64,000 nt of DNA, taken from NCBI RefSeq assembly GCF_003018255.1, contig NZ_CP027440.1, one strand, 5' to 3'. This stretch comes from Escherichia coli (GTDB lineage Bacteria > Pseudomonadota > Gammaproteobacteria > Enterobacterales > Enterobacteriaceae). The notes below the pieces were generated by a model that saw only the letters and a program-made list of their open reading frames with translations, was not told where the DNA came from and made no database searches. The position numbers were made by a program, and so were the translations under genes. Position 1 is the stretch's first letter. Each line of letters opens with the position of its first letter. Positions 2,535 through 33,345 of the stretch are shown here, piece by piece.

Positions 2535-2545
2535 CAAATTAAGCG

Positions 2546-2573
2546 AAAGGCCATCCGAAAGGATGGCCTTTTT
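2546..2573 (+). terminator. rrn operon intrinsic terminator
   Basis: GC-rich hairpin aaaggccatcc-gaaa-ggatggccttt followed by a T tract, immediately after 5S. Confidence 0.85.
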
Positions 2574-2657
2574 GCATTGGCGCAGAAAAAATGCCGGATG
2601 CGACGCTGGCGCGTCTGCTCCAGCTTACGCAAGCACGATAGCACGATAGGGGGCAGC

Positions 2658-3101
2658 TTATTCCCCTACATATGCCAGATTCAGCAATGGATACGGTTTC
2701 CCCAAATCGTCCACCTCAGAGCGTCCCGTAACCTTAAAACCCATCTTCTTATAGAACCCAACAGCCTGCTTATTTTGCTCATTAACATTGGTTGTCAGTT
2801 CCGGTGCCATCGAGAGCGCATGTTCCACCAGCATCCGACCCACGCCGCAGCCGCGCACATCAGGATCGATAAACAGCGCATCCATATGCTGCCCACTTAA
2901 CAACATAAACCCAACCGGCCGATCCCGCTCATTAACCGCGACCCACAACGGCGCTTCCGGCAGGAAGGAACGAACTAGCTCCTCCAGCTCGGCCCGATAC
3001 GCTGCTGATAAAAAATCGTGAGTGGCATCGACAGAACGACACCAAATCGCAACGAGCTCCTCCCCTTCCTCATGCCGTGAGCGGCGAATACTAATAACCA
3101 T
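2658..3101 (-). CDS. yjaB: GNAT-family N-acetyltransferase YjaB
   Basis: 147-aa ORF with the acetyl-CoA binding motif region (RGCGVGRMLVEHAL); position between rrn and metA as in E. coli. Confidence 0.9.
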   Translation of the reverse strand: MVISIRRSRHEEGEELVAIWCRSVDATHDFLSAAYRAELEELVRSFLPEAPLWVAVNERDRPVGFMLLSGQHMDALFIDPDVRGCGVGRMLVEHALSMAPELTTNVNEQNKQAVGFYKKMGFKVTGRSEVDDLGKPYPLLNLAYVGE

Positions 3102-3214
3102 TTTCTCTCCTTTTCGTCATTCTTATATTCTAACGTAGCCTTTTCCTTGAAACTTTCTCACCTTCAATATGCAGGCTCGACATTGGCAAATTTTCTGGTT
3201 ATCTTCAGCTATCT

Positions 3215-3245
3215 GGATGTCTAAACGTATAAGCGTATGTAGTGA
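3215..3245 (+). promoter_or_regulatory. Tandem MetJ boxes in the metA promoter
   Basis: Consecutive 8-bp met-box-like repeats (gatgtcta aacgtata agcgtatg) just upstream of the metA start; MetJ consensus is AGACGTCT. Confidence 0.6.
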
Positions 3246-3257
3246 GGTAATCAGGTT

Positions 3258-4187
3258 ATGCCGATTCGTGTGCCGGACGAGCTACCCGCCGTCAATTTCT
3301 TGCGTGAAGAAAACGTCTTTGTGATGACAACTTCTCGTGCGTCTGGTCAGGAAATTCGTCCGCTAAAGGTGCTTATCCTTAACCTGATGCCGAAGAAGAT
3401 CGAAACTGAAAATCAGTTTCTGCGCCTGCTTTCAAACTCACCTTTGCAGGTCGATATTCAGCTGTTGCGCATCGATTCCCGTGAATCGCGCAACACGCCC
3501 GCAGAGCATCTGAATAACTTCTACTGTAACTTTGAAGATATTCAGGAACAAAACTTTGATGGTCTGATAGTTACCGGCGCGCCGCTGGGCCTGGTGGAGT
3601 TTAATGATGTTGCTTACTGGCCGCAGATCAAACAGGTGCTGGAGTGGTCGAAAGATCACGTCACCTCGACGCTGTTTGTCTGTTGGGCGGTCCAGGCCGC
3701 GCTCAATATCCTCTACGGCATTCCTAAGCAAACCCGCACCGACAAACTCTCTGGCGTTTACGAGCATCATATTCTCCATCCTCATGCGCTTCTGACGCGT
3801 GGCTTTGATGATTCATTCCTGGCACCACATTCGCGCTATGCTGACTTTCCGGCAGCGTTGATTCGTGATTATACCGATCTGGAAATTCTGGCGGAGACAG
3901 AAGAAGGGGATGCCTATCTGTTTGCCAGCAAAGATAAGCGAATTGCCTTTGTGACGGGCCATCCCGAATATGATGCGCAAACGCTGGCGCAGGAATTTTT
4001 CCGCGATGTGGAAGCCGGACTAGACCCGGATGTACCGTATAACTATTTCCCGCATAATGATCCGCAAAATACACCGCGAGCGAGCTGGCGTAGTCACGGT
4101 AATTTGCTGTTTACCAACTGGCTCAACTATTACGTCTACCAGATCACGCCATACGATCTACGGCACATGAACCCAACGCTGGATTAA
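3258..4187 (+). CDS. metA: Homoserine O-succinyltransferase
   Basis: 309-aa ORF starting [47 protein letters not shown], recognised as E. coli MetA. Confidence 0.96.
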
Positions 4188-4231
4188 TCTTCTGTGATAG
4201 TCGATCGTTAAGCGATTCAGCACCTTACCTC

Positions 4232-4255
4232 AGGCACCTTCGGGTGCCTTTTTTA
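4232..4255 (+). terminator. metA intrinsic terminator
   Basis: Hairpin aggcacc-ttcg-ggtgcct followed by tttttt. Confidence 0.8.
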
Positions 4256-4334
4256 TTTCCGAAACGCACCTCAGTAGGTGAATAAATTTTATTCATATTG
4301 TTATCAATAAGTTATCAAGTATTTTTAATTAAAA

Positions 4335-4357
4335 TGGAAATTGTTTTTGATTTTGCA
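4335..4357. promoter_or_regulatory. aceB promoter region with IclR operator
   Basis: tggaaattgtttttgattttgca about 100 bp upstream of aceB matches the known IclR box region of aceBAK; exact boundaries approximate. Confidence 0.55.
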
Positions 4358-4455
4358 TTTTAAATGAGTAGTCTTAGTTGTGCTGAACGAAAAGCGCACA
4401 ACGATCCTTCGTTCACAGTGGGGAAGTTTTCGGATCCATGACGAGGAGCTGCACG

Positions 4456-6057
4456 ATGACTGAACAGGCAACAACAACCGATGAATTGGCTTTCACAAGG
4501 CCGTATGGCGAGCAGGAGAAGCATATTCTTACTGCCGAAGCGGTAGAATTTCTGACTGAGCTGGTGACGCATTTTACGCCACAACGCAATAAACTTCTGG
4601 CAGCGCGCATTCAGCAGCAGCAGGATATCGATAACGGAACGTTGCCTGATTTTATTTCGGAAACAGCTTCCATTCGTGATGCTGACTGGAAAATTCGCGG
4701 GATTCCTGCGGACTTAGAAGATCGTCGGGTAGAGATTACCGGCCCGGTTGAGCGCAAGATGGTGATCAACGCGCTCAACGCCAATGTGAAAGTCTTTATG
4801 GCCGATTTCGAAGATTCACTGGCACCAGACTGGAACAAAGTGATCGATGGGCAAATTAACCTGCGCGATGCGGTTAACGGCACCATCAGCTATACCAATG
4901 AAGCAGGCAAAATTTATCAGCTCAAGCCCAATCCAGCGGTTTTGATTTGTCGGGTACGCGGTCTGCACTTGCCGGAAAAACATGTCACCTGGCGTGGTGA
5001 GGCAATCCCCGGTAGCCTGTTTGATTTTGCGCTCTATTTCTTCCACAACTATCAGGCACTGTTGGCAAAGGGCAGCGGTCCCTATTTCTATCTGCCGAAA
5101 ACCCAGTCCTGGCAGGAAGCGGCCTGGTGGAGCGAAGTCTTCAGCTATGCAGAAGATCGCTTTAATCTGCCGCGCGGCACCATCAAGGCGACGTTGCTGA
5201 TTGAAACGCTGCCCGCCGTGTTCCAGATGGATGAAATCCTTCACGCGCTGCGTGACCATATTGTTGGTCTGAACTGCGGTCGTTGGGATTACATCTTCAG
5301 TTATATCAAAACATTGAAAAACTATCCCGATCGCGTCCTGCCAGATAGACAGGCAGTGACGATGGATAAACCCTTCCTGAATGCTTACTCACGCCTGTTG
5401 ATTAAAACCTGCCATAAACGCGGTGCTTTTGCGATGGGCGGTATGGCGGCATTTATTCCGAGCAAAGATGAAGAGCGCAATAACCAGGTGCTCAACAAAG
5501 TAAAAGCGGATAAATCGCTGGAAGCTAATAACGGTCACGATGGCACATGGATTGCCCACCCAGGCCTTGCGGATACGGCAATGGCGGTATTCAACGACAT
5601 TCTCGGCTCCCGTAAAAATCAGCTTGAAGTGATGCGCGAACAAGACGCGCCGATTACTGCCGATCAGTTGCTGGCACCTTGTGATGGTGAACGCACCGAA
5701 GAAGGTATGCGCGCCAACATTCGCGTGGCTGTGCAGTACATCGAAGCGTGGATCTCTGGCAATGGCTGTGTGCCGATTTATGGCCTGATGGAAGATGCGG
5801 CGACGGCTGAAATTTCCCGTACCTCAATCTGGCAGTGGATCCATCATCAAAAAACGTTGAGCAATGGCAAACCGGTGACTAAAGCCTTGTTCCGCCAGAT
5901 GCTGGGCGAAGAGATGAAAGTCATTGCCAGCGAACTGGGCGAAGAACGTTTCTCCCAGGGGCGTTTTGACGATGCCGCACGCTTGATGGAACAGATCACC
6001 ACTTCCGATGAGTTAATTGATTTCCTGACCCTGCCAGGCTACCGCCTGTTAGCGTAA
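4456..6057 (+). CDS. aceB: Malate synthase A
   Basis: ORF-track 4438..6057; start moved to the internal ATG giving [20 protein letters not shown] (533 aa), the known AceB N-terminus. Confidence 0.95.
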
Positions 6058-6086
6058 ACCACCACATAACTATGGAGCATCTGCAC

Positions 6087-7391
6087 ATGAAAACCCGTAC
6101 ACAACAAATTGAAGAATTACAGAAAGAGTGGACTCAACCGCGTTGGGAAGGCATTACTCGCCCGTACAGCGCGGAAGATGTGGTGAAATTACGCGGTTCA
6201 GTCAATCCGGAATGCACCCTGGCGCAACTGGGCGCGGCGAAAATGTGGCGTCTGCTGCACGGCGAGTCGAAAAAAGGCTACATCAACAGCCTCGGTGCAC
6301 TGACTGGCGGTCAGGCGCTGCAACAGGCGAAAGCGGGTATTGAAGCAGTCTATCTGTCGGGATGGCAGGTAGCGGCGGACGCTAACCTGGCGGCCAGCAT
6401 GTATCCGGATCAGTCGCTCTATCCGGCAAACTCGGTGCCAGCGGTGGTGGAGCGGATCAACAATACTTTCCGCCGTGCGGATCAGATCCAATGGTCCGCG
6501 GGCATTGAGCCGGGCGATCCGCGCTATGTCGATTACTTCCTGCCGATCGTCGCCGATGCGGAGGCCGGTTTTGGCGGTGTACTGAATGCCTTTGAACTGA
6601 TGAAAGCGATGATTGAAGCCGGTGCAGCGGCAGTTCACTTCGAAGATCAGCTGGCATCAGTGAAGAAATGTGGTCACATGGGCGGCAAAGTTTTGGTGCC
6701 AACTCAGGAAGCTATTCAGAAACTGGTCGCGGCGCGTCTGGCAGCTGATGTGACGGGCGTTCCAACCCTGCTGGTTGCTCGTACCGATGCCGATGCGGCG
6801 GATCTGATTACCTCCGATTGCGACCCATATGACAGCGAATTTATTACTGGCGAGCGTACCAGTGAAGGCTTCTTCCGTACTCATGCGGGTATTGAGCAAG
6901 CGATCAGCCGTGGCCTGGCGTATGCGCCATATGCTGACCTGGTCTGGTGTGAAACCTCCACGCCGGACCTGGAACTGGCGCGTCGCTTTGCACAAGCCAT
7001 CCACGCGAAATATCCGGGCAAACTGCTGGCTTATAACTGCTCGCCGTCGTTCAACTGGCAGAAAAACCTCGACGACAAAACTATTGCCAGCTTCCAGCAG
7101 CAGCTGTCGGATATGGGCTACAAGTTCCAGTTCATCACCCTGGCAGGTATCCACAGCATGTGGTTCAACATGTTTGACCTGGCAAACGCCTATGCCCAGG
7201 GCGAGGGTATGAAGCACTATGTTGAGAAAGTGCAGCAGCCGGAATTTGCCGCCGCGAAAGATGGCTATACCTTCGTATCTCACCAACAGGAAGTGGGTAC
7301 AGGTTACTTCGATAAAGTGACGACCATTATTCAGGGCGGCACGTCGTCGGTTACCGCACTGACTGGCTCCACCGAAGAATCGCAGTTCTAA
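6087..7391 (+). CDS. aceA: Isocitrate lyase
   Basis: ORF-track 6072..7391; start moved to [22 protein letters not shown] (434 aa). Contains the isocitrate lyase signature KKCGHMGGK. Confidence 0.96.
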
Positions 7392-7414
7392 GCAACCGAT
7401 AAACGTTGCTGACT

Positions 7415-9331
<1,917 letters not shown>

Positions 9332-9347
9332 ATCAGAGGCGAAAAAG

Positions 9348-10172
9348 TCAGCGTATTCCACCGTACGCCAGCGTCACTTCCTTCGCCGCTTTAATCACCA
9401 TCGCGCCAAACTCGGTCACGCGGTCATCGGTAATACGTGAAATCGGTCCGGAAATTGAAATTGCGGCAAACGGTTCGCGGTGCTCATCGAAAATACACGC
9501 TGCAAGGCAACGCAGCCCCAGCGCATGTTCCTCATCGTCAAATGAATAACCCCGTTTGCGCGTTTGGGCGAGATCTTCTTTTAAATGCACAGGAGACACC
9601 AGCGTTGCGTGGGTATAGGCATGTAACCCTTTGCGGTGCAGCAGCTTCGTCACCTGTTCTTCGCTCAGTTGGGCCAGAAAGGCTTTACCCGCACCGGAAG
9701 CGTGCATCGGCAATTTACCGCCGATAGGCGCGGACATTCGCATCAGGTGAGTACACTGTACCTGGTCGATAATAATCGCTTCGTGATTGCTTTGATCAAG
9801 CACCGCCATATTGACCGTTTCGCCAGACTCTTCCATTAGATTGCGCAGGATAGGGTGAACAATCGCTAACAAATTACGGCTCTGGAGAAAGCTGCTACCG
9901 ACCATAAAGGCGTGTGCGCCGATTGCCCAGTGACCCAGTTCGCCGACCTGACGGACAAAGCCCTGTTGCTGCATCGTGGTTAGCAGGCGGTGGGTCGTGG
10001 AATTGGGTAACCCGGCTTGCTGTGCCAGTTCCGTGAGTGCCACACTGCCATTGGATTCGGCAATCCACTCCAGTAATTTCAGGCCACGCGTTAAAGACTG
10101 AACCTGTCCAGTCGCTGGTGCGGTGGCAACGGCGGGTTTTCTGCCGCGTTTTGCGGGAATGGGTGCGACCAT
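9348..10172 (-). CDS. iclR: Glyoxylate-shunt repressor IclR
   Basis: ORF-track 9348..10211; start moved to MVAPIPAKRGRKPAVATAPATGQVQSL (274 aa), the known IclR N-terminus. Confidence 0.94.
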   Translation of the reverse strand: MVAPIPAKRGRKPAVATAPATGQVQSLTRGLKLLEWIAESNGSVALTELAQQAGLPNSTTHRLLTTMQQQGFVRQVGELGHWAIGAHAFMVGSSFLQSRNLLAIVHPILRNLMEESGETVNMAVLDQSNHEAIIIDQVQCTHLMRMSAPIGGKLPMHASGAGKAFLAQLSEEQVTKLLHRKGLHAYTHATLVSPVHLKEDLAQTRKRGYSFDDEEHALGLRCLAACIFDEHREPFAAISISGPISRITDDRVTEFGAMVIKAAKEVTLAYGGIR

Positions 10173-10371
10173 GACAGTCTCCTTTTTCTGTATCGTGGAA
10201 ATCATTTTCATTTTTATTGTTAGCTAATGCAATAGTTGCTGAACTGATCCGATGAGTTAATGTTGAACAAATCTCATGTTGCGTGGTGGTCGCTTTTACC
10301 ACAGATGCGTTTATGCCAGTATGGTTTGTTGAATTTTTATTAAATCTGGGTTGAGCGTGTCGGGAGCAAGT

Positions 10372-14055
<3,684 letters not shown>

Positions 14056-14086
14056 TTCACAAATCTGTCACTTTTCCTTACAACAA

Positions 14087-14120
14087 ACAGGGCGCTCAAT
14101 GAGTGCCCTGTCTCTTTATT
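14087..14120 (+). terminator. metH intrinsic terminator
   Basis: Hairpin acagggcgctca-at-gagtgccctgt followed by ctctttatt. Confidence 0.7.
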
Positions 14121-14274
14121 AATATGAAACACTTATACTGGAAACAGGCTGGAATAATCTTAGCCGGAAAAACGAAGGTCAAAAGGCACAGTAAAGATGC
14201 CAGTCAGCGTGTTTCCGGTCCTTTGGTCATTCAATTGCTTCAGGAACATATAACGATAAGGAGAACCTGAACTC

Positions 14275-15906
14275 GTGTTAACGCTGCTTCACCTGCTTTC
14301 TGCCGTCGCCCTGCTGGTCTGGGGGACTCATATTGTTCGAACCGGCGTAATGCGCGTCTTCGGCGCGCGTTTGCGTACTGTCCTTAGCCGGAGCGTCGAA
14401 AAAAAGCCGCTCGCCTTTTGCGCGGGGATAGGCGTTACCGCACTGGTGCAGAGCAGTAATGCCACCACTATGCTGGTGACCTCGTTCGTCGCTCAGGATC
14501 TGGTAGCCCTCGCACCGGCTCTGGTGATTGTGCTGGGTGCAGATGTCGGGACGGCGCTAATGGCGCGTATTCTCACCTTCGACTTATCCTGGCTGTCACC
14601 ATTACTTATTTTTATCGGCGTGATTTTTTTCCTCGGACGCAAACAGTCACGCGCCGGGCAACTGGGCCGCGTCGGTATTGGTCTTGGGTTGATTTTGCTG
14701 GCGCTGGAGTTGATTGTGCAGGCCGTAACGCCGATCACCCAGGCAAACGGCGTTCAGGTGATCTTTGCCTCGCTGACCGGCGATATTCTGCTGGATGCGC
14801 TGATTGGTGCGATGTTCGCCATTATCAGCTACTCCAGCCTTGCCGCGGTACTGCTGACCGCGACTCTGACCGCCGCAGGCATTATCTCTTTCCCAGTGGC
14901 GCTTTGTCTGGTGATTGGTGCAAACCTCGGTTCCGGCCTGCTGGCGATGCTCAACAACAGTGCCGCCAATGCCGCAGCCCGCCGTGTCGCGCTGGGTAGC
15001 CTGCTGTTTAAGCTGGTGGGTAGCCTGATTATCCTGCCGTTTGTTCATTTGCTGGCAGAGACAATGGGGAAGTTGCCATTGCCAAAAGCGGAATTGGTGA
15101 TCTATTTCCACGTCTTCTACAACCTTGTACGCTGCCTGGTCATGCTGCCATTTGTTGACCCGATGGCACGGTTTTGCAAAACGATTATTCGCGATGAACC
15201 GGAACTGGATACCCAGCTACGGCCTAAACATCTGGATGTCAGCGCGCTGGATACGCCCACGCTTGCTCTGGCGAACGCTGCCCGCGAAACCCTGCGCATT
15301 GGCGACGCCATGGAACAGATGATGGAAGGGTTGAATAAAGTGATGCACGGCGAGCCACGGCAGGAGAAAGAGCTGCGTAAGCTGGCTGATGACATCAACG
15401 TTCTCTATACCGCCATTAAGCTGTATCTGGCGCGGATGCCAAAAGAGGAACTGGCAGAAGAAGAGTCGCGCCGCTGGGCGGAGATCATCGAAATGTCGCT
15501 CAACCTTGAACAGGCCTCCGATATCGTCGAGCGCATGGGGAGTGAAATTGCCGATAAATCGCTGGCAGCACGGCGGGCATTTTCGCTTGATGGCTTGAAG
15601 GAACTGGATGCGCTCTATGAGCAATTGCTCAGTAATTTAAAACTGGCAATGTCGGTTTTCTTCTCTGGCGATGTTACCAGCGCCCGTCGTTTGCGCCGCA
15701 GCAAGCATCGCTTTCGCATTCTTAATCGCCGTTATTCCCATGCTCACGTCGATCGCCTGCATCAGCAAAACGTGCAGAGTATTGAAACCAGTTCGCTACA
15801 TTTAGGCTTACTGGGAGATATGCAGCGTCTGAACTCGCTGTTTTGTTCGGTGGCTTACAGTGTGCTGGAACAGCCGGATGAAGACGAAGGACGGGACGAG
15901 TATTAA
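14275..15906 (+). CDS. yjbB: Na+/Pi-cotransporter family inner membrane protein YjbB
   Basis: 543-aa ORF with GTG start preceded by AAGGAG; N-terminal polytopic membrane domain and C-terminal PhoU-like region. Confidence 0.9.
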   Translation: MLTLLHLLSAVALLVWGTHIVRTGVMRVFGARLRTVLSRSVEKKPLAFCAGIGVTALVQSSNATTMLVTSFVAQDLVALAPALVIVLGADVGTALMARILTFDLSWLSPLLIFIGVIFFLGRKQSRAGQLGRVGIGLGLILLALELIVQAVTPITQANGVQVIFASLTGDILLDALIGAMFAIISYSSLAAVLLTATLTAAGIISFPVALCLVIGANLGSGLLAMLNNSAANAAARRVALGSLLFKLVGSLIILPFVHLLAETMGKLPLPKAELVIYFHVFYNLVRCLVMLPFVDPMARFCKTIIRDEPELDTQLRPKHLDVSALDTPTLALANAARETLRIGDAMEQMMEGLNKVMHGEPRQEKELRKLADDINVLYTAIKLYLARMPKEELAEEESRRWAEIIEMSLNLEQASDIVERMGSEIADKSLAARRAFSLDGLKELDALYEQLLSNLKLAMSVFFSGDVTSARRLRRSKHRFRILNRRYSHAHVDRLHQQNVQSIETSSLHLGLLGDMQRLNSLFCSVAYSVLEQPDEDEGRDEY

Positions 15907-15921
15907 TACCGTGACCCTGAA

Positions 15922-15988
15922 GGCCTGATAAGACGTGTAAAGCGTCGCATCAGGCACTATGTACAAGATGCCGGATCATGCATCCGGC
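15922..15988. repeat. REP-like palindromes between yjbB and pepE
   Basis: ggcctgataagacg...cgtcgcatcaggc and gccggatcatgcatccggc. Confidence 0.75.
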
Positions 15989-15995
15989 AATTCAC

Positions 15996-16685
15996 TTAAA
16001 AACGGTGACCCGCTTCCAGCGGAACCGCTTCTTCACCAGCCTTAAACACATAAGTGGTGTTCGGGCCACCCAGCGTTGCGTGACCTTTATTCACTGTGAT
16101 CCAGTTACCTTCCGGTAGACCAATAATTGTGAGTTCTGGCGCGACGACCAGCAGTTCGCGAATACGCTGTTCACGGGTTTCACCTTTATGGCCTTCCGGC
16201 AGCGCGTTGGTGAAGTGCGGGTTGATTTGCAACGGGAACAGATTCAGCGCATCGAAACCTTGTGGATCGACAATCGGCATATCGTTGGTGGTACGAATGG
16301 TTGGGCAAGCAAGGTTAGCGCCTGCGCTCCAGCCAATATACAGCGCGCCACGTTTCACCACGTCAGTAATGGGTGCCAGCAGCCCGCGCTCGCGGCACTG
16401 TTTCAGCAACTGGAAAGTATTCCCGCCGCCGACAATCACGATCTCAGCATTTTCAATCGCGGCAACGGGATCGACAACGCTATGAATACCGGTGACAGAA
16501 ACACCCAGCGGAGCGAGAACCGCAGCCGTTTTCGCTGTGTAATCATCCCAGGTCTGCGTTACGCCAGCGAAAGGGATAAACACCGCTGAGCGGCGACCCT
16601 GCAACTGTTCAGCAATTAGCGGCAGTGCATGTTCCAGCCAGGCTTTACCCGGCAGCGTCGAGTTACTCAATAAAAGCAGTTCCAT
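15996..16685 (-). CDS. pepE: Dipeptidase E (alpha-aspartyl dipeptidase)
   Basis: 229-aa ORF starting [28 protein letters not shown], recognised as PepE. Confidence 0.95.
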
Positions 16686-16808
16686 TACTTCTCCGGTTAG
16701 TAAGAAATCACGGAAGGCATGCTACCACTGCGAATTTAACCACTTACTGACATGGCTCACGATGTCACGTATTGCACAGGCGCTGAGACTGATGACAAAC
16801 ACAGCATT

Positions 16809-16906
16809 GCCTGATGCGCTACGCTTACCTGGCCTACCAGATAACTGCAATATATTGAATTTTCGAGATTATGTAGGCCGAATAAGGCTTCATTCCGCAT
16901 CCGGCA
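16809..16906. repeat. REP pair in the pepE-sorE spacer
   Basis: gcctgatgcgctacgcttacctggcctac and gtaggccgaataaggcttcattccgcatccggca. Confidence 0.8.
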
Positions 16907-16935
16907 TAAACAATGTGTACTTTGCCACCAATTTG

Positions 16936-16963
16936 AGCGCCCCTTAAGGCGCTGATATTTTTT
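16936..16963 (+). terminator. Terminator-like hairpin with T tract, no obvious plus-strand gene upstream
   Basis: agcgcc-ccttaa-ggcgct followed by gatatttttta; orientation is for plus-strand transcription. Confidence 0.4.
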
Positions 16964-17065
16964 ATCCTTCTCATGCAAATTGTGCTGCTTCAGCAATCAG
17001 CCGCACATCCGGTCGCGAAGTTGCCGCGGCGACCAGCCAGCGACATGCAGAGTTAAGTAGCGCGA

Positions 17066-18295
17066 TTAATCATGGGAAATTGCCTCTGCATGAGTGAGCA
17101 GATATTGCTCCGCCTCACCGGACCAGATCCCCTGATGACGCGCCAGAATTGCCGCCAGTGCTTGATCCTGAATCTGCGTGAGTGACATAAGCGGCAGGTA
17201 TTTCCCGGTATACACCAGCTTTTTGCCGCCGCCGACGGCAGGCAATTCAAGCGTGGTTTCGCCCGCGGCATTCAGCCCAAGAATATGTGTTACCACTTTT
17301 GCGGCCTGCACTTTTTTCTCTTCGATCAGTTTGACCGCCGCGCGCATGTCGTCGGTATTGCCGCCTGACGTGCCCACGTAGTGGGTAAATGCATAATGCA
17401 CATCGTAGAAATTAATTGGCGCGCTGAAATGTTTATCCTGCGGTCCGGCGAAGAAATTCAGGCAACCATCTGTCGCCAGCAAGGAAGAGGCGAGAGTCAC
17501 CAGTCCTTCATTAGGCACAAAGACGAAAATATCATCGAAGCCGTGACCGCCACTCAGCGCCATTAACGTATCAAATGCTGCATCAGTGGCATTGAGATAA
17601 TGAATCAGTGTTTGCGATTCTGATGGATAGTGCTTGCGCGCATAACTCAATTTATCGTTGTCGGTATCGGTAATGACGAGCAGCGACGGGTTAACGGGTC
17701 CATGCAGCGCATAATCAATCGCCAACAGTCCCATTGGTCCGGTGCCGCCGAGGATCAGCGTGCGCCCTTGCGGGCGAATCCCCATCGTGTGGTTATAACT
17801 ACCTTCCTGAAGATGATAGTTGGCGTTGAACGCGCCAATCACGCAGGAAAGCGGTTCAACCAGCGAGCCTTCAAAATAGGTTTCGCCGTCGTATGCCAGC
17901 AGGCAATCTTGTTCCATAACCTCATTTGGGATAACCACATGTGTGGCTTCACCGCCCACCCACGGGAAGGAGTAGCCGGGGCAGTCCGGGCGGTCGGGGA
18001 GTTGCAGGTTGGCCTGAATCACATAACGCTGACCCGGCTGGAATTTGTGCTGCCACTTTTTACCCACGGCCAGAATATCGCCGCAAAACTCGTGGCCGAT
18101 GATGATGGGGTTGGTCGCCACATCGTCGGGTACTTTTTTATGGTTTTCACCCAGATTGGCCTCTTTCCAGGAAGAGAGGCACAGGCTGTCGGTGACCACC
18201 GTCGCGAGGATTTCATCCTCCTGCATTTCAGGAAGATCAAAGGTTTCCAGGCGTAAATCACGTTTACCATAAAGACGCAGAGCTGTTGTTTTCAT
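17066..18295 (-). CDS. sorE: L-sorbose-1-phosphate reductase (zinc-dependent alcohol dehydrogenase family)
   Basis: ORF-track 17066..18307; start taken at MKTTALRLYGKRDLRLETFDLPEMQ. Medium-chain dehydrogenase features and last position in a sorCDFBAME-ordered operon. Confidence 0.85.
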   Translation of the reverse strand: MKTTALRLYGKRDLRLETFDLPEMQEDEILATVVTDSLCLSSWKEANLGENHKKVPDDVATNPIIIGHEFCGDILAVGKKWQHKFQPGQRYVIQANLQLPDRPDCPGYSFPWVGGEATHVVIPNEVMEQDCLLAYDGETYFEGSLVEPLSCVIGAFNANYHLQEGSYNHTMGIRPQGRTLILGGTGPMGLLAIDYALHGPVNPSLLVITDTDNDKLSYARKHYPSESQTLIHYLNATDAAFDTLMALSGGHGFDDIFVFVPNEGLVTLASSLLATDGCLNFFAGPQDKHFSAPINFYDVHYAFTHYVGTSGGNTDDMRAAVKLIEEKKVQAAKVVTHILGLNAAGETTLELPAVGGGKKLVYTGKYLPLMSLTQIQDQALAAILARHQGIWSGEAEQYLLTHAEAISHD

Positions 18296-18346
18296 AAACC
18301 ACCTCATGTTGAGCGATGGCCCCGGCAGTCGTGCCGGGGCGAAGAA

Positions 18347-19171
18347 TCAGGACAGGAAGCCCAGCACATTGCCGATAATCCCTAAGCCAAACAGGGCGAA
18401 AATCAGCCATACCGGGTTAATTTTTTTGTTGAGCAGACGAACCATCAGTAGCGTCAGACCGAGCGCCAGCAAACCAGGGCAAAGTTGGTCGAGAATGTTC
18501 TGCACGGTCATGGTGACGGTGGAGCCATCGGCGGCATGCGTTTGTGAAACCACCAACGGTACGTTGATTGACGTCCATTTGGTGACCAGCACGCCCATCA
18601 CAAACAGTCCGAGAATCGACGCGCCTTCGGTGAGTTTTTGCAGCACATTCCCGCCCATATCGCTGACGATATTCACCCCTTTGCGAAAGCCGAGCTGTAG
18701 GCCATACCACTTCATCGCCAGACGCACCGCGTTGAAAATAAAGAAGAACAGCAGGGGGCCGAGAATGTTGCCCGAAAGTGCCAGAGATGCGCCGAGCGCG
18801 GCGGTAATCGGGCGCAGCGTTCCCCAGACCAGTGGATCGCCAACCCCTGCCAACGGTCCCATCAGGCCGACTTTGATGCCGTTAATGGTACCGTCATCAA
18901 TTTCCGCGCCGTTGGCCCGCGCCTCTTCCATGGCGGCAGTGACGCCGATGACCGGGCCACATACGGCTGGCGTGGTATTGAAGAACACCAGGTGTCGCCT
19001 GAGCGCCGCAACCTGATCCTCTTTTAATGGGTAAAGTCGCTTGATGGCGGGGATCATGTCGTAGCAAAAACCCAGCCCATGAATACGTTCAAAGTTAAAG
19101 GACGCCTGTTGCAGGTTGGAGCGCAGAAACATGTTCACCAGATCGCTGCGTGTAATTTTTCTCTGTTCCAT
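18347..19171 (-). CDS. sorM: PTS sorbose-specific EIID component
   Basis: Mannose-family IID membrane protein. Start taken at MEQRKITRSDLV (GGAG 5 nt upstream); the ORF-track start at 19201 would overlap sorA by 20 nt and lacks a Shine-Dalgarno. Confidence 0.8.
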   Translation of the reverse strand: MEQRKITRSDLVNMFLRSNLQQASFNFERIHGLGFCYDMIPAIKRLYPLKEDQVAALRRHLVFFNTTPAVCGPVIGVTAAMEEARANGAEIDDGTINGIKVGLMGPLAGVGDPLVWGTLRPITAALGASLALSGNILGPLLFFFIFNAVRLAMKWYGLQLGFRKGVNIVSDMGGNVLQKLTEGASILGLFVMGVLVTKWTSINVPLVVSQTHAADGSTVTMTVQNILDQLCPGLLALGLTLLMVRLLNKKINPVWLIFALFGLGIIGNVLGFLS

Positions 19172-19181
19172 GATGGCTCCG

Positions 19182-19979
19182 TTAATTGTCAAGTTGGTCA
19201 AGGGCGGTGGAGGCGGTGGCCTGGAGTTGAGGTTCAGCTTTACGCCACTGTGGATTTAGCTGGATGTAGACCAGGGCCATGATCACGCCGACGCCACCGA
19301 ACGCCAGCAGACTGAGATCGAGGTAGCCACCTGCGAGGAAACCGAGGAAAAAGAAAGGCATCAAATATTTCACGCCCATCATGCGAAGCACCATGGCGTA
19401 ACCGACCACCACGATAAAACCGCCAGCAATCTGCAGTCCACGGGTCACAAATTCGGGAATGGCGCTCAGCATATTGCTCACCATATCAGCGCTGACGAAC
19501 AGCGAGACAATCAGTGCCGGAATAGCAACGCGCAGTGCCTGCACGCCAAGCGCGGAGACATGCAGAATATCGAGAGTGCGAAACCGTGCTTCTTCCGCTG
19601 CTTTATCCGCCGCGTGCTGGAACACTACGGTGATGGTACGGGCAAACACCGTCAGCACCTGGCCTGCCGCAGCCACAGGCAACGCGATGGCGATTCCGGT
19701 GGCGATGCTTTGCTGACCAACGATAACCAGAATGGCGGAGATTATGCTGGCGAGTGCAGAATCCGGAGATTGCGCCGCGCCGACGTTCATCCAGCCGAGA
19801 GCTATCAATTCCAGCGTACCACCGAGCATAATTCCGGTTTTTAAATCACCGAGAATTAAACCAATCACCGTACAGGCAATTAACGGACGATGAGTCTGAA
19901 ATTCATCCAGCACGCTGCCCATTCCGGCAATACAGGAAAAAAGAAATATAGCAATGATTTGTAGGGTACTTATTTCCAT
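19182..19979 (-). CDS. sorA: PTS sorbose-specific EIIC component
   Basis: 265-aa polytopic membrane protein of the mannose-family IIC type, between the IIB and IID genes. Confidence 0.88.
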   Translation of the reverse strand: MEISTLQIIAIFLFSCIAGMGSVLDEFQTHRPLIACTVIGLILGDLKTGIMLGGTLELIALGWMNVGAAQSPDSALASIISAILVIVGQQSIATGIAIALPVAAAGQVLTVFARTITVVFQHAADKAAEEARFRTLDILHVSALGVQALRVAIPALIVSLFVSADMVSNMLSAIPEFVTRGLQIAGGFIVVVGYAMVLRMMGVKYLMPFFFLGFLAGGYLDLSLLAFGGVGVIMALVYIQLNPQWRKAEPQLQATASTALDQLDN

Positions 19980-20044
19980 GATTTGTCACCTTTTAAGTGT
20001 CGTCATCCCTGCCTGTTAAAGCATATGTACACAGGCGCTATTAT

Positions 20045-20539
20045 TTAATTTGCGATTAACTGTTCGTTTATTTTGTCGATAATATTGATTGAGGGATCTG
20101 ACGCTACGACGCGTAAATCCAGTATGACGCCAAGATTATTTAACTCATGAAATGCGTTAATATCATCATCATCTAATGAAACCGCTTTGGTTAACTGTTT
20201 TTTACCGGGCCGCCAGGCCATGCCGCCAATATTCAGGGTGTCTATTTTTACCCCCTGGCGAACCATCGCTAAGGCATCCTGTGGGCGAGTGAAAAGATAA
20301 AAAACGGTTTCGTCCTGATATTGCGGGTTGTGATAAACCGCGACGGCTTTTTCAATATTGACCACGTTAACCTTCATTCCCGGTGGCGCAGCCTGACGCA
20401 ATAATGTCCGGCGCACTTCATCGTTATAAACTTCGTCATTGCAGATAATAATGTGCTGGGCATTAGCCACTTTCGACCAGACGGTAGTGACCTGGCCGTG
20501 GATCAGACGGTCATCAATGCGGGCGAGCGTAATGTTCAT
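20045..20539 (-). CDS. sorB: PTS sorbose-specific EIIB component
   Basis: 164-aa ORF with N-terminal RIDDRLIHGQV motif typical of mannose-family IIB domains. Confidence 0.88.
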   Translation of the reverse strand: MNITLARIDDRLIHGQVTTVWSKVANAQHIIICNDEVYNDEVRRTLLRQAAPPGMKVNVVNIEKAVAVYHNPQYQDETVFYLFTRPQDALAMVRQGVKIDTLNIGGMAWRPGKKQLTKAVSLDDDDINAFHELNNLGVILDLRVVASDPSINIIDKINEQLIAN

Positions 20540-20946
20540 CAGAAATCCTCCTCTGCCGTTGCCAGTTGTTTCCAGACAACGCAGGTTTGCTTTGCGATTT
20601 GCGTCAGGTGTTCACACAGTTCATCAACATTCATGCTGTGCTGGTTATCAACCAGTTCGAGCGCCAGCGGCAGAGAAAGGCCGCTGATTACCCGCAGACG
20701 AGGATTGCGCATCGCAAGCATCGCTGCCGCATTCCACGGGCTGCCGCACTGTAAATCCACGGCAATCAGCCACTCATCTTGATTGTGAATGCTTACTAAC
20801 TTTTCCAGCTTTGCTACGATGTCTCCGGCGTTTTCACCGGGCACAAATTCAACGGCTTCAACATTGGCGTTGCCGTAAACCATCTGAACCGATTCCAGCA
20901 TGGCGCAAGCTAATTTGCCGTGGGCACAAAAAATGGCGTTGACCAT
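20539..20946 (-). CDS. sorF: PTS sorbose-specific EIIA component
   Basis: 135-aa ORF of the mannose-family IIA type; AAGGAG upstream; its stop shares 1 nt with the sorB start. Confidence 0.88.
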   Translation of the reverse strand: MVNAIFCAHGKLACAMLESVQMVYGNANVEAVEFVPGENAGDIVAKLEKLVSIHNQDEWLIAVDLQCGSPWNAAAMLAMRNPRLRVISGLSLPLALELVDNQHSMNVDELCEHLTQIAKQTCVVWKQLATAEEDF

Positions 20947-20955
20947 AAAGCCTCC

Positions 20956-21762
20956 TTAGCCGCGCGTTTTGCCGCCCGCAATGTTAGTGGTTACTCCGGT
21001 GATATAGCTGGCGCGTTGAGACAGCAGATAACAAACAAAATCAGCGACTTCTGCTAATCTTCCGGCGCGCCCAATAGGAATGGCGTTTTTGGTATAGCCT
21101 TCACGCAGCTGCTCGACGGTGATATTGCGCGTCCACGCCAGCGCCTCTTCATATTCCGGCGTGCGTAGCCCGGTTTTTTCCAGAATCCCGGGCGCGATAC
21201 CGACCACACGGATGCCGTGTTTACCCAGCTCTTTCGACCAGGAGCGCGTGAAGCTATTGAGCGCGGCTTTGGTAGCGGCGTAACAGCTTTGGCCTTCTGA
21301 GCCTTCCAGTCCACTTTCTGAGGAAACATTCACAATCACGCCATCATGTTGTTTGACCATCTGTCGCGCCACCGCCTGCGACATCAGAAAAACGCCTTTC
21401 TGGTTGATATTGACCATTTTTTCGAATGCAGCTTCGTTGAGTTCATACTGCCCGGCAGGCGCTTTCTCATCGACCAGCAGACGCGGGAAATTGACCCCGG
21501 CGTTATTGACCAGACCGTCGATGCGACCAAAACGCTGGATAATTTCCGCTACCGTATGATTTACCTCTTTGGCGCTGGAAATATCGGTCGGCCAAAACTG
21601 ATAGCCTTTATGACCTTCATATTGTCCATCGCCACCGTGAATATCGACCATCTGTACATTCGCGCCTTGTGCTAATAATTCCTCTACAATCGCCAGACCA
21701 ATACCGCATGCGCCGCCGGTGACGATAATGATTTTATCCTGCAAATTTAACCACGTTTGCAT
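20956..21762 (-). CDS. sorD: Sorbitol(glucitol)-6-phosphate dehydrogenase, SDR family
   Basis: 268-aa short-chain dehydrogenase with N-terminal TGGACGIG cofactor motif and the YAATK catalytic motif. Confidence 0.87.
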   Translation of the reverse strand: MQTWLNLQDKIIIVTGGACGIGLAIVEELLAQGANVQMVDIHGGDGQYEGHKGYQFWPTDISSAKEVNHTVAEIIQRFGRIDGLVNNAGVNFPRLLVDEKAPAGQYELNEAAFEKMVNINQKGVFLMSQAVARQMVKQHDGVIVNVSSESGLEGSEGQSCYAATKAALNSFTRSWSKELGKHGIRVVGIAPGILEKTGLRTPEYEEALAWTRNITVEQLREGYTKNAIPIGRAGRLAEVADFVCYLLSQRASYITGVTTNIAGGKTRG

Positions 21763-21831
21763 AACAGACTCCTGATTTTAGATAATAGGGACCCGCCGTA
21801 ATTTTTATTACGATAAACATCGGGAAGATTT

Positions 21832-22779
21832 TTATTTCAGTAATAGTTCAGCTGTGCTGCTATTCGTTACCAGACAATTAATATATTTTCCACGCAGTGT
21901 ACCAATAATTCCGCTGTATTTTTCTTCACTCATGGCAATGCCAATGGAATACCGCGCCTGCTTTAATTTATTCATTTCGATAGAGAGTGTTTTTTCGCTC
22001 ATATTCGTTTCAACCATTGCGCCGTGAATATCAAAAAAGCGCGAGCAAATATCGCCAGCAACCTGGCGGGCATTCAGGTCGTCACTCTCTTCACCACCAT
22101 AAAACGCATGCCAGTTAGCGCCGTCGCGAATGGCCGGTGAGCCAATTCCCACCAGGGCGACATCCAGATTATCCCAGTAGGCAGAGATGGTTTTAAAGTG
22201 CTGAGACTGCATGATCCCATTACGAATTAATGGGTTATCCAGCAGAGCCGGAAAATCCGCGAGATGCGATTCCCCTTTCAGCTTCGCTGCCGCGCTGTAG
22301 GTTAATGTGTTTACGTGATAGCGGCTTTCGAGTTTACCGGACGGTCCGCCAATAATTGGTACGCAGATTAACTGCCGCGATTGCCCCGCCTGCGGCAAGT
22401 TTTCAACCAGTGCGCTCACCGCGCGACCCCAGGAAAAACCGACAATATCGCCAGGCTCCAGCAAGCGATCCAGCAGTTGCGCGCCGTGTAACCCCATCAT
22501 CGCCAGTTGAGTCTCTTCATCCTCATCATTTCCCGACACCACCACAACGTCTTTCAGGCCAAACTTTTGCTTCAGTTGCTGCTCCAGCCAGAGATTTTCG
22601 TTGTAGTCATAGTTGATGGCGATGGTGACAATTCCCTGATCGCGGCCTCGTTTAAGCAAGCGGCTGATGGTGGTGCGGTAAATACCCAGTTCGCGCGCGA
22701 TTTGCGCCTGCGTCATATCCTGTTCGTAATAGAGTTGGGCAATCTTCACAATCAAACGGATATCGTCACTGTTTTCCAT
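21832..22779 (-). CDS. sorC: Sorbose operon transcriptional regulator (SorC/DeoR family)
   Basis: ORF-track 21832..22863 begins at a TTG; start moved to MENSDDIRLIVKIAQLYYEQDMTQAQIARELGIYRTTISR (315 aa), preceded by AGGAGG. N-terminal helix-turn-helix plus sugar-phosphate binding domain. Confidence 0.85.
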   Translation of the reverse strand: MENSDDIRLIVKIAQLYYEQDMTQAQIARELGIYRTTISRLLKRGRDQGIVTIAINYDYNENLWLEQQLKQKFGLKDVVVVSGNDEDEETQLAMMGLHGAQLLDRLLEPGDIVGFSWGRAVSALVENLPQAGQSRQLICVPIIGGPSGKLESRYHVNTLTYSAAAKLKGESHLADFPALLDNPLIRNGIMQSQHFKTISAYWDNLDVALVGIGSPAIRDGANWHAFYGGEESDDLNARQVAGDICSRFFDIHGAMVETNMSEKTLSIEMNKLKQARYSIGIAMSEEKYSGIIGTLRGKYINCLVTNSSTAELLLK

Positions 22780-23126
22780 TGCCGCCTCCTGGTTCTGCAC
22801 ATTTGTGCAAATACGCTTTCTCACCGCTTGATCTGATATAACCCCATCATGAGGGCCTTTCAAAGCGATTTTTCACTCTTTGCATGGGGAGAAATAGCGC
22901 TTTCTCTTGCACATTTGTTTCTCTGCGTAGTAGTCATCAGCACAGGTGTGCAGCGATTCGTAATATGTTGATTATCCTTATTTTGCCAGGCAAATTTGCA
23001 TCGTACTTCCGGAGACACTTTTGTGATAAAAGGCGTGGCAGATCACATTTAATTTCGACGTTGCCGCATAACCCTGTTTTTCCCCGCTAAGAGGTACGGT
23101 ATATTCCGCGTTTTACAGGAGAATTT

Positions 23127-23999
23127 ATGCTGCCCGACTCATCAGTCCGTTTAAATAAATACATCAGCGAAAGCGGAATTTGCTCACGCCGCGAAGCGGA
23201 TCGCTATATCGAGCAAGGCAATGTGTTCCTTAATGGCAAGCGAGCCACCATTGGCGATCAGGTGAAACCCGGCGACGTTGTGAAAGTAAATGGTCAGTTG
23301 ATTGAACCTCGGGAAGCCGAAGATTTGGTACTTATCGCCCTGAACAAGCCCGTCGGTATTGTCAGCACCACCGAAGATGGCGAGCGCGATAACATTGTCG
23401 ATTTCGTTAACCACAGCAAACGCGTATTCCCGATTGGCCGCCTGGATAAAGACTCCCAGGGGCTGATTTTCCTCACCAATCACGGCGATCTGGTGAATAA
23501 GATCCTCCGTGCGGGTAACGATCATGAGAAAGAGTATCTGGTGACGGTCGATAAACCGATTACCGATGAATTTATTCGTGGTATGGGGGCGGGGGTGCCA
23601 ATCCTCGGGACAGTGACTAAAAAGTGCAAAGTCAAAAAAGAAGCGCCATTTGTCTTCCGCATTACCCTGGTGCAGGGGCTGAACCGTCAGATCCGTCGCA
23701 TGTGCGAGCACTTTGGTTACGAAGTGAAAAAGCTGGAACGTACGCGCATTATGAACGTCAGTTTAAGCGGCATTCCGCTGGGGGAGTGGCGCGATTTAAC
23801 CGACGATGAGTTAATCGACCTCTTTAAGCTCATCGAAAATTCCTCTTCCGAGGCAAAACCTAAAGCGAAGGCCAAACCGAAAACGGTAGGCATCAAACGT
23901 CCAGTCGTTAAGATGGAAAAAACGGCGGAAAAAGGCGGTCGCCCGGCGTCCAACGGTAAGCGTTTTACCTCGCCGGGGCGCAAAAAGAAGGGGCGTTAA
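23127..23999 (+). CDS. rluF: 23S rRNA pseudouridine synthase F
   Basis: 290-aa ORF with N-terminal S4 domain, RluA/RsuA-type catalytic region and Lys-rich tail; recognised as RluF. Confidence 0.93.
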
Positions 24000-24272
24000 T
24001 CAGCGCCTGCCGCGCGTCGACGTATTTGCTGACCAGCTAAATGACGCCTCAGGATCCGGTTTATAAGCCTGCTTTTTCTTCAATTGGCGGGCTTTTTTCG
24101 CTTCAGCCTCACGCTCGACCATTAATTTATCGATGTACTCTTTCTTAATGCTGTTGGTTTCGGAGTTGGTCAGTACGCGACCATGCGCAATCCGCGCCCG
24201 ATCCAGCAGTGTTTTAAGTTCACGCTGCTCGCGTTCAGTCATCTCTTTTTGGGTAATACGGGGGAGTGCCAT
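24000..24272 (-). CDS. yjbD: Uncharacterised protein YjbD (DUF3811)
   Basis: 90-aa ORF convergent with rluF; sequence recognised as YjbD. Confidence 0.85.
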   Translation of the reverse strand: MALPRITQKEMTEREQRELKTLLDRARIAHGRVLTNSETNSIKKEYIDKLMVEREAEAKKARQLKKKQAYKPDPEASFSWSANTSTRGRR

Positions 24273-24481
24273 GATGGTGCCCTCAGTGAGCCAGAGAGTT
24301 CAGTGTACGGGAATTCGTTTGCGAGCAGAACTGATAATATTCATTTTGCCTTCTCTTAACTATTTATCTCTTTCGATAATTAATTAGAGATGTAGATAAA
24401 AAAATTAAAGGCAATTATTCTCCGATAAAGACGTTGGTTAACAGAGTACAGGCTCGTTTATTTATGGGCATAATGACAAGA

Positions 24482-24516
24482 AAAACAATACGGCCCGAAA
24501 TAATGTCTTCCGGGCC
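24482..24516 (-). terminator. lysC intrinsic terminator
   Basis: On the minus strand, hairpin ggcccg...cgggcc followed by a T tract (plus-strand A run at 24481-24490), 10 bp past the lysC stop. Confidence 0.75.
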
Positions 24517-24525
24517 ATACTGTGT

Positions 24526-25875
24526 TTACTCAAACAAATTAAAATGCAGCTTCTGCACCACCTGCTCGGCATCTTCGCCGGGCACCAGGAAGCACAGGTT
24601 ATGGCTGGATGCGCCGTAACAAATCATGCGAATGTTGAACGGTTCCAGTACGCCGAATACCTCTTTGCCAACGCCGCAGGCTTTTGACAGGTCATTGCCA
24701 ATCAACGCGACCAGCGCCAGACCTTCCTCCACTTCTACCCGGCATAGTGCAGACAGCTCCATCAGCAGAGATTGCGTCAGCAAGGTATCGCCAGTGGAGG
24801 TTGAACCGGTGGTATCAAGGGTTAATGCCACGCTCACTTCTGACGTGGTGATTAAGTCTACCGAAATATTATGCCGCGCGAGGATGCCGAAAACTTCCGC
24901 GAGGAAACCGCGAGAATGCAGCATATTCAGGCTGTGCAAAGTGAGCAGAGTCTGATTGCGACGAAGCGCCAGCGCGCGGAACAGCGGCGGATTTTCAGTT
25001 TTATTGCACACCAGCGTACCACCTGCGCGTGGGTCTTTGCTGGAGCCGACAAAGACCGGGATATCGCTGCGTACTGCGGGTAGCAACGTTGCCGGATGCA
25101 GTACTTTTGCACCAAAAGTTGCCATCTCTGCCGCTTCGGCAAACGCGATTTCATCAATGCGTTTTGCTGCGGAAACCACGCGTGGATCGGTGGTGTAGAT
25201 GCCCGGGACGTCGGTCCAGATATCAACACGAGATGCGTGTAAAGCCTCCGCCAGCAAGGCTGCCGTATAATCGCTGCCTCCACGGCCAAGCGTCGTTGTA
25301 CGACCTTTATTTTCGCTGCCGATAAATCCCTGGGTGATCACTAAGCCTTCATTGAGGCGTGGGAGCAGTTGCAGCGCGGCCAGTTCCGCCAGCGCGGCTA
25401 CATCTGGCTCTGCACGACCAAATCGGTCGTTGGTACGCATCACTTTACGTACATCAAACCATTGTGCCTGAACATCGCGTTCGCGCAGGATCTCGACAAA
25501 CAGCAGGGTCGACATCAGCTCGCCGTGGCTGACCAGTTCATCTGTCAGGGCCGGAGACGTTGCCAGCGCCGCCGCTTCTGCCAGAACAGTAATGTTCTCC
25601 AGCAGACGTTCAATCTCTTCACGGATAACGTTCGGGTAACGCAGACGTTCCAGAATGGCAAACTGGATGTTGCGAATAGCGTCGAGTTTTTCGAATCGCT
25701 CGCCAGGTTCCAGTCCTTCAGCTAAAGCGACCAGCAGATTAGTGATACCAGCAGAAGCCGAGAGGACAACTAAACGCACGTTGGCATCAGAAAGCACAAT
25801 ATCAGCGCTGCGGTTCATGGCGTCAAAATCAGCTACGCTGGTACCGCCAAATTTGGAGACAACAATTTCAGACAT
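24526..25875 (-). CDS. lysC: Lysine-sensitive aspartokinase III
   Basis: 449-aa ORF starting MSEIVVSKFGGTSVADFDAMNRSADIVLSD, recognised as LysC. Confidence 0.96.
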   Translation of the reverse strand: MSEIVVSKFGGTSVADFDAMNRSADIVLSDANVRLVVLSASAGITNLLVALAEGLEPGERFEKLDAIRNIQFAILERLRYPNVIREEIERLLENITVLAEAAALATSPALTDELVSHGELMSTLLFVEILRERDVQAQWFDVRKVMRTNDRFGRAEPDVAALAELAALQLLPRLNEGLVITQGFIGSENKGRTTTLGRGGSDYTAALLAEALHASRVDIWTDVPGIYTTDPRVVSAAKRIDEIAFAEAAEMATFGAKVLHPATLLPAVRSDIPVFVGSSKDPRAGGTLVCNKTENPPLFRALALRRNQTLLTLHSLNMLHSRGFLAEVFGILARHNISVDLITTSEVSVALTLDTTGSTSTGDTLLTQSLLMELSALCRVEVEEGLALVALIGNDLSKACGVGKEVFGVLEPFNIRMICYGASSHNLCFLVPGEDAEQVVQKLHFNLFE

Positions 25876-33322: not shown

Positions 33323-33345
33323 AAAAAGGCGCTCCGTGGAGCGCC
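33321..33345. terminator. Terminator between convergent psiE and malG
   Basis: aaaaaaa then hairpin ggcgctcc-gt-ggagcgcc; the A tract gives a T tract on the minus strand, so it mainly serves malG. Confidence 0.7.

What the first reader, a model, noticed from the sequence alone, without database searches (positions are those of the whole stretch)
9332..9347. No arpA gene: aceK and iclR stop codons are only 16 bp apart
In K-12 the ankyrin-repeat gene arpA lies between aceK and iclR. Here the convergent aceK and iclR stops are separated by just atcagaggcgaaaaag, and AceK has a slightly different C-terminus (...[10 protein letters not shown]) from the K-12 one as I recall it. Lack of arpA is the marker used in Clermont phylotyping for phylogroups B2 and F, so this suggests a non-A/B1 background.
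Basis: partly seen in the sequence, partly recalled or inferred. Interest (0 to 1): 0.3.

Follow-up and report, generated by a model that had tools for sequence, protein, structure and literature searches.

The report
Empty arpA site between aceK and iclR
This E. coli stretch lacks the arpA gene that K-12 carries between aceK and iclR, which is the original, never-occupied state of the site and a well-known typing marker for phylogroups B2, F and G, so the finding is correct but ordinary.

Summary
aceK (7607..9331, +, 574 aa) and iclR (stop at 9348..9350, -) converge with a 16-bp spacer, ATCAGAGGCGAAAAAG. K-12 has 2,471 bp between the two stops, holding arpA.

The break is exact. The 14 bp at window 9327..9340 (TATAAATCAGAGGC, which includes the aceK stop) are replaced in K-12 by 2,481 bp of 37% G+C DNA. 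This rewrites the AceK tail from ...RFV* to ...RYGEMLF*.

E. albertii has almost the same junction, and 76 other Enterobacteriaceae species have aceK and iclR adjacent without arpA. So the window shows the ancestral empty site and arpA is an insertion, not a loss here.

Among 5,426 complete E. coli genomes, 1,314 have the uninterrupted junction and 4,109 carry arpA DNA.

In-silico Clermont PCR on the window is arpA-negative and yjaA-negative. That argues against typical B2.

The nearest complete genome, JNE23-011, is chuA+ and gives the ybgD amplicon. Labelled references rank ST117 (G) 1.5%, CFT073 (B2) 2.5%, IAI39 (F) 2.5% and K-12 (A) 2.9% divergent. The background is probably phylogroup G.

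This is a known marker of low interest.

The parts
7607..9331 (+). aceK, isocitrate dehydrogenase kinase/phosphatase, 574 aa, ending ...[10 protein letters not shown] (ancestral-type tail)
   Evidence: ORF list; translation; Pfam AceK_regulatory and AceK_kinase domains; same length and tail in CFT073, IAI39, APEC O2-211 and E. albertii
8933..8952 (+). Perfect binding site for Clermont primer AceK.f. The partner primer ArpA1.r has no site within 4 mismatches, so no 400-bp arpA amplicon is predicted
   Evidence: In-silico PCR, primers from PMC10132334. The K-12 control gives 400 bp
9327..9340 (.). 14 bp (TATAAATCAGAGGC, includes the aceK stop codon) that occupy the position where K-12 has the 2,481-bp arpA segment. 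This is the empty insertion site
   Evidence: blastn break points; junction alignment; coordinates and lengths
9332..9347 (.). 16-bp spacer ATCAGAGGCGAAAAAG between the convergent stop codons. Its last 7 bp (GAAAAAG) are kept in K-12 next to iclR and supply the T-run of a weak terminator-like site for iclR
   Evidence: terminator-like site 9370..9349 on the - strand; fold not better than shuffles
9348..10172 (-). iclR, repressor of the aceBAK operon, 274 aa (an in-frame upstream ATG extends the ORF to 10211)
   Evidence: ORF list; translation; Pfam HTH_IclR and IclR_C; annotated as 825 bp in the nearest genomes
2542..2662 (.). 121 bp between rrf (5S rRNA) and yjaB where K-12 has 518 bp containing yjaA. 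This is a second Clermont marker, also negative in this window
   Evidence: blastn; primers absent; sequence; JNE23-011 and IAI39 annotations lack yjaA, CFT073 has it

Best explanation
The window comes from an E. coli sensu stricto lineage in which the aceK-iclR junction is still in its ancestral state: two convergent genes with stop codons 16 bp apart. arpA was never inserted here. In K-12-like lineages, a 2,481-bp low-G+C segment landed on the aceK stop codon and replaced 14 bp. The segment carries arpA, a ShET2/EspL-family ankyrin-repeat gene. The insertion extended the aceK reading frame by four net codons into foreign DNA and pushed iclR 2.5 kb away. Nothing is missing functionally in the window: aceBAK and iclR are intact. 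The absence is the arpA-negative result of the Clermont quadruplex PCR, shared by phylogroups B2, F and G. Together with the absence of yjaA and the nearest relatives, it points to phylogroup G. Shown: the anatomy, the orthology of the junction to the outgroup, the population split and the primer results. Inferred: the direction of the event (insertion rather than deletion) and the phylogroup.
For: Junction and break points. K-12 layout. Foreign character of the K-12 segment: G+C 0.369 against 0.53-0.56 for aceK, iclR and metH; Pfam Toxin_15 (ShET2 N-terminal) plus ankyrin repeats; named EspL4 or ShET2/EspL2-family T3SS effector by RefSeq. Outgroups: in all 77 non-E. coli Enterobacteriaceae loci that hold both genes, aceK and iclR are convergent neighbours and none has an ArpA match. 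E. albertii has a 15-bp spacer ATCAGTGGCGAAAAG and the same AceK tail RFSVRFV*. Population: 1,314 of 5,426 complete genomes have the uninterrupted junction and 4,109 have arpA DNA, at most 2 places per genome. Reference strains: the same 16-bp junction in CFT073 (B2), IAI39 (F) and APEC O2-211 (ST117; ST117 is phylogroup G per PMC7858641). Typing: the ArpA1.r and yjaA primer sites are absent from the window while the K-12 control gives 400 and 211 bp. Divergence over about 17 kb: JNE23-011 0.52%, ST117 1.48%, CFT073 2.46%, IAI39 2.54%, K-12 2.93%. JNE23-011 gives perfect chuA (288 bp) and ybgD (177 bp, listed as the group G test in PMC12473729) amplicons.
Against: Only one other Escherichia species (E. 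albertii) was in the outgroup set. E. fergusonii and the cryptic clades were not seen, so the point in the tree at which arpA entered is not fixed. chuA, TspE4.C2 and ybgD lie outside the window and were typed only on a proxy genome. That proxy is 0.5-1.2% divergent and mosaic relative to the window. TspE4.C2 was not located at all, so a yjaA-negative B2 profile is not formally excluded. One paper (PMC9973021) assigns ybgD and cfaB to F and G the other way round from PMC12473729. As a control, the F reference IAI39 has no ybgD primer site in the stretches fetched around gltA (715-740 kb and 760-810 kb), but the stretch just upstream of gltA, where the operon sits in JNE23-011, was not fetched.
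Confidence: 0.85

Rival explanations
1. arpA was once present in this lineage and was removed by a secondary deletion.
For: Presence/absence alone cannot tell gain from loss. About three quarters of complete E. coli genomes carry arpA.
Against: A deletion would have had to restore the ancestral 14 bp exactly, including the original aceK stop codon and the RFV* tail. These match E. albertii apart from point substitutions. No arpA remnant is left. The same exact junction occurs in B2, F and G references.
Confidence: 0.04
2. The lineage once had arpA but regained the empty-site allele by homologous recombination with an arpA-less donor, using the conserved aceK and iclR flanks.
For: The region is visibly mosaic. 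The window is about 100% identical to JNE23-011 from 2.6 to 15.6 kb and 97-99% beyond. The aceK 3' half is 3% away even from G, B2 and F references. ClermonTyping authors report probable horizontal transfer of arpA alleles between phylogroups (PMC6113867).
Against: All close relatives and the three arpA-negative phylogroups share the empty site, so no arpA-positive ancestor needs to be assumed. There is no direct evidence for such an event.
Confidence: 0.1
3. The tight junction is an assembly artefact that collapsed the arpA region.
For: None found.
Against: The identical junction is present in 1,314 complete genomes, including a 100% match over 901 bp in JNE23-011. Both reading frames close properly.
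Confidence: 0.01

Closest known systems
arpA-negative genotype of the Clermont quadruplex phylotyping PCR (primers AceK.f / ArpA1.r), phylogroups B2, F and G
   Same: AceK.f binds perfectly at 8933..8952 and ArpA1.r has no site. The junction is the same as in CFT073 (B2), IAI39 (F) and APEC O2-211 (ST117, G).
   Different: Nothing differs at the junction. The window is also yjaA-negative, unlike the B2 reference CFT073, and is closest to G-type genomes rather than to the B2 or F references.
K-12 MG1655 aceK-arpA-iclR locus (b4016-b4018)
   Same: The flanks are collinear at 96.6-97.1% identity. aceK and iclR have the same orientation, and the same GAAAAAG lies next to the iclR stop.
   Different: K-12 has 2,481 bp of 37% G+C DNA carrying arpA in place of 14 bp, an AceK of 578 rather than 574 aa ending YGEMLF*, and a 32-bp aceK/arpA overlap.
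aceK-iclR junction of Escherichia albertii and other Enterobacteriaceae
   Same: Convergent aceK and iclR with no gene between them in all 77 species loci that hold both genes. E. albertii has a 15-bp spacer and the same AceK tail.
   Different: Spacer length varies between genera, from a 47-bp overlap to about 1.7 kb. Citrobacter and Salmonella spacers (43-50 bp) differ in sequence, and the Citrobacter ones hold GC-rich palindromes.

Membership tests
Clermont arpA-negative E. coli (B2 / F / G) | No 400-bp AceK.f/ArpA1.r product (arpA absent next to aceK) | tested here: met
   AceK.f is perfect and ArpA1.r is absent within 4 mismatches. The K-12 control gives 400 bp. tblastn with ArpA is negative over the whole window.
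Clermont arpA-negative E. coli (B2 / F / G) | chuA present | not testable with these tools
   The chu locus is about 0.6 Mb away from the window. The proxy genome JNE23-011 has chuA with a perfect 288-bp amplicon.
Phylogroup B2 (typical profile - + + +/-) | yjaA present (211-bp product) | tested here: not met
   yjaA primers are absent and 121 bp replace the yjaA segment. CFT073 (B2) has yjaA. The rare - + - + B2 profile is not excluded because TspE4.C2 is untested.
Phylogroup G (F-like quadruplex profile plus ybgD allele-specific product) | ybgD 177-bp product; TspE4.C2 negative | not testable with these tools
   Both markers lie outside the window. The proxy JNE23-011 gives a perfect 177-bp ybgD amplicon. 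The F reference IAI39 has no ybgD primer site in the stretches fetched around gltA. TspE4.C2 was not located. Supporting distance data: ST117 1.48% against B2 2.46% and F 2.54%.
Phylogroup F | Clusters with F reference genomes | tested here: not met
   IAI39 (F) is 2.5-2.7% divergent, as far as B2 and almost as far as K-12. This rests on only about 17 kb of a mosaic region.
Ancestral (never occupied) insertion site | Junction orthologous base for base to that of an outgroup lacking the element; inserted DNA compositionally foreign | tested here: met
   E. albertii alignment. 77 of 77 species loci that hold both genes have no arpA. K-12 insert G+C is 0.369 against 0.53-0.56 in the flanks.

The most novel reading that the evidence does not exclude
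The stop codons are 16 bp apart and no convincing intrinsic terminator is predicted for either gene. Transcription of the induced aceBAK operon may therefore run antisense into iclR, the gene for its own repressor, and the reverse may also happen. That would give arpA-negative lineages a convergent-transcription feedback on the glyoxylate shunt. The 2.5-kb arpA insertion would have uncoupled this feedback in K-12-like lineages, together with a changed AceK tail.
Probability: 0.07. Interest if true: 0.35.

Novelty: already known. Interest (0 to 1): 0.08.

Why it matters
It matters little beyond strain typing. The absence of arpA places the source strain outside phylogroups A, B1, C, D and E and, with the other evidence, probably in G, a poultry- and ExPEC-associated group. 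There are two small clarifications. The arpA-negative state is the ancestral empty site rather than a loss. The K-12 reference AceK C-terminus (GEMLF) is a by-product of the arpA insertion. The differing residues lie after the end of the Pfam kinase domain match (residue 564 of 574), so no functional effect is expected.

Tried and rejected
- **Terminators in the spacer.** The scan finds only a weak iclR-side site that uses the GAAAAAG run. RNA folds of both strands are no better than shuffles, with z-scores of +0.5 and -1.2. No bidirectional terminator is claimed.
- **Insertion mechanism.** I looked for terminal repeats or target duplications at the ends of the K-12 insert and saw none, so no mechanism of insertion is proposed.
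- **Literature on the junction.** A search for papers that discuss arpA, aceK, iclR and phylogroup together gave no hits. A search for EspL4/arpA gave nothing useful.
- **TspE4.C2.** It could not be located in the proxy genome because only the 20-nt primers are known to me.
- **F assignment.** It was considered from the quadruplex logic and set aside because IAI39 is as distant as B2.

Full report
**Observation**

The sequence is as described.
- aceK occupies 7607..9331 on the + strand and encodes 574 aa ending [10 protein letters not shown].
- iclR lies on the - strand with its stop codon at 9348..9350. The ORF runs to 10211, and the 274-aa annotated form starts at 10172.
- The spacer 9332..9347 is ATCAGAGGCGAAAAAG, 16 bp.
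- Pfam identifies both proteins unambiguously.
- In K-12 MG1655 the order is aceK (+, 578 aa), arpA (-, 728 aa, overlapping the aceK 3' end by 32 bp), iclR (-). There are 2,471 bp between the aceK and iclR stops.

**Anatomy of the difference**

blastn of the window against the K-12 locus is collinear at about 97% identity and breaks only around the junction. A junction alignment refines the break.
- Homology on the aceK side runs through window 9326.
- Homology on the iclR side resumes at 9341 (GAAAAAG followed by the iclR stop).
- The 14 bp between, TATAAATCAGAGGC, contain the aceK stop codon. In K-12 they are replaced by 2,481 bp (L001 9317..11797).
- The K-12 segment is 36.9% G+C, against 53-56% for aceK, iclR and metH.
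- It encodes a protein with a ShET2 enterotoxin N-terminal domain and ankyrin repeats. RefSeq names it EspL4 or ShET2/EspL2-family type III effector.
- In K-12 the aceK frame reads on into this DNA, which produces the GEMLF tail.
- No terminal repeats were seen at the insert ends.

**Direction of the event**

One scan of species-representative genomes with the window's AceK returned 80 loci.
- In all 77 that contain both genes, aceK and iclR are convergent neighbours, and none has an ArpA match.
- E. albertii is the only other Escherichia species returned. It has a 15-bp spacer ATCAGTGGCGAAAAG and the AceK tail RFSVRFV*. It aligns column for column with the window, CFT073, IAI39 and APEC O2-211.
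- A deletion would have had to recreate this ancestral sequence exactly. The simplest reading is that the window holds the never-occupied site and that arpA is a horizontally acquired insertion in the other lineages.
- Re-import of the empty allele by homologous recombination cannot be excluded. The region is mosaic, and arpA allele transfer has been suggested by others (PMC6113867).

**Population frequency**

- A 901-bp query across the junction is uninterrupted in 1,314 of 5,426 complete E. coli genomes. In the others it splits at the junction.
- arpA DNA is found in 4,109 genomes, at most twice per genome.
- The two counts add to 5,423. This gives no sign that arpA-less junctions coexist with arpA elsewhere, although the two sets were not intersected directly.

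**Phylogroup**

Primer sequences came from PMC10132334.
- In-silico PCR gives the expected 400-bp arpA and 211-bp yjaA products on K-12. On the window AceK.f binds perfectly, but there is no ArpA1.r site and no yjaA primer site.
- The yjaA segment is replaced by 121 bp at 2542..2662.
- Reference genomes behave as the scheme predicts:

| Reference | Phylogroup | arpA | yjaA |
|---|---|---|---|
| CFT073 | B2 | absent | present |
| IAI39 | F | absent | absent |
| APEC O2-211 (ST117) | G | absent | absent |

- Divergence from the window over about 17 kb of shared sequence:

| Genome | Divergence |
|---|---|
| JNE23-011 | 0.52% |
| JNE120442 / 2014C-3338 | 1.4% |
| ST117 genomes (G) | 1.48% |
| CFT073 (B2) | 2.46% |
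| IAI39 (F) | 2.54% |
| K-12 (A) | 2.93% |

- JNE23-011 is the nearest complete genome: 99.3% identical over the first 28.8 kb, 98.8% over the rest, and fully collinear.
- It carries the chu locus with a perfect 288-bp chuA amplicon and a perfect 177-bp ybgD amplicon.
- ybgD is listed as the group G test in PMC12473729 and is used for G by EzClermont (PMC7656184).
- The F reference IAI39 shows a TRAP transporter gene rather than ybgD next to gltA and has no ybgD primer site in the stretches fetched around gltA. The DNA upstream of that gene was not fetched.
- This rests on a proxy genome and a mosaic 17-kb comparison. TspE4.C2 was not tested.

**Function**

- Nothing in the glyoxylate-shunt cluster is damaged: metA, aceB, aceA, aceK, iclR and metH are all intact and syntenic.
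- The AceK residues that differ from K-12 lie beyond the Pfam kinase-domain match, which ends at residue 564 of 574.
- The spacer holds no convincing terminator. There is only a weak terminator-like site for iclR, with its stem inside the iclR coding end and the spacer's T-run. Folds are not better than shuffles.
- Convergent read-through between aceBAK and iclR is conceivable but untested.

**Verdict**

The feature is a textbook typing marker. The additions here are:
- the exact break points;
- evidence that the empty site is ancestral and the K-12 AceK tail derived;
- the likely assignment to phylogroup G.

Interest is low.

Noticed in passing
window 2542..2662: yjaA is absent: 121 bp, with a terminator-like hairpin and a REP-like GC-rich stretch, replace the 518 bp that hold yjaA in K-12. 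YjaA homologues sit at the same upstream position in several other genera (47-72% identity in Kosakonia, Phytobacter, Superficieibacter and others). So here the absence looks like a loss, the opposite polarity to arpA.
   Followed up: partly
window 16767..23091: A sorbose (sor) PTS/utilisation operon of about 6.3 kb lies between pepE and rluF. It is absent from K-12 and present in JNE23-011, CFT073, IAI39 and ST117 genomes.
   Followed up: partly
window about 33321..33325, 41318..41332 and 49003..49137: Three further K-12 segments are missing from the window: xylE (about 1.8 kb between psiE and malG), the yjbI pseudogene (about 1.9 kb between malM and ubiC) and yjbL-yjbM (about 1.7 kb between zur and dusA). 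JNE23-011 lacks them too.
   Followed up: no
window 2663..25000 against JNE23-011 (L002/L083): Identity to the nearest complete genome is mosaic: 99.9-100% from 2.6 to 15.6 kb, then 97-99% through pepE and the sor operon. The aceK 3' half is about 3% from the G, B2 and F references. This suggests recombination tracts.
   Followed up: partly
E. coli genome hits H61-H79 (not in the window): About half of the arpA-positive complete genomes match only 72% of K-12 arpA, in two pieces spanning about 1.54 kb. This points to a common allele with an internal deletion of about 0.6 kb, still annotated as a ShET2/EspL2-family effector.
   Followed up: no
L086 28261..29609 (IAI39) and L086/L087 between metH and yjbB: IAI39 carries an IS1397 copy between aceA and aceK. 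IAI39 and CFT073 both have two small hypothetical genes between metH and yjbB that the window, K-12 and the G genomes lack.
   Followed up: no
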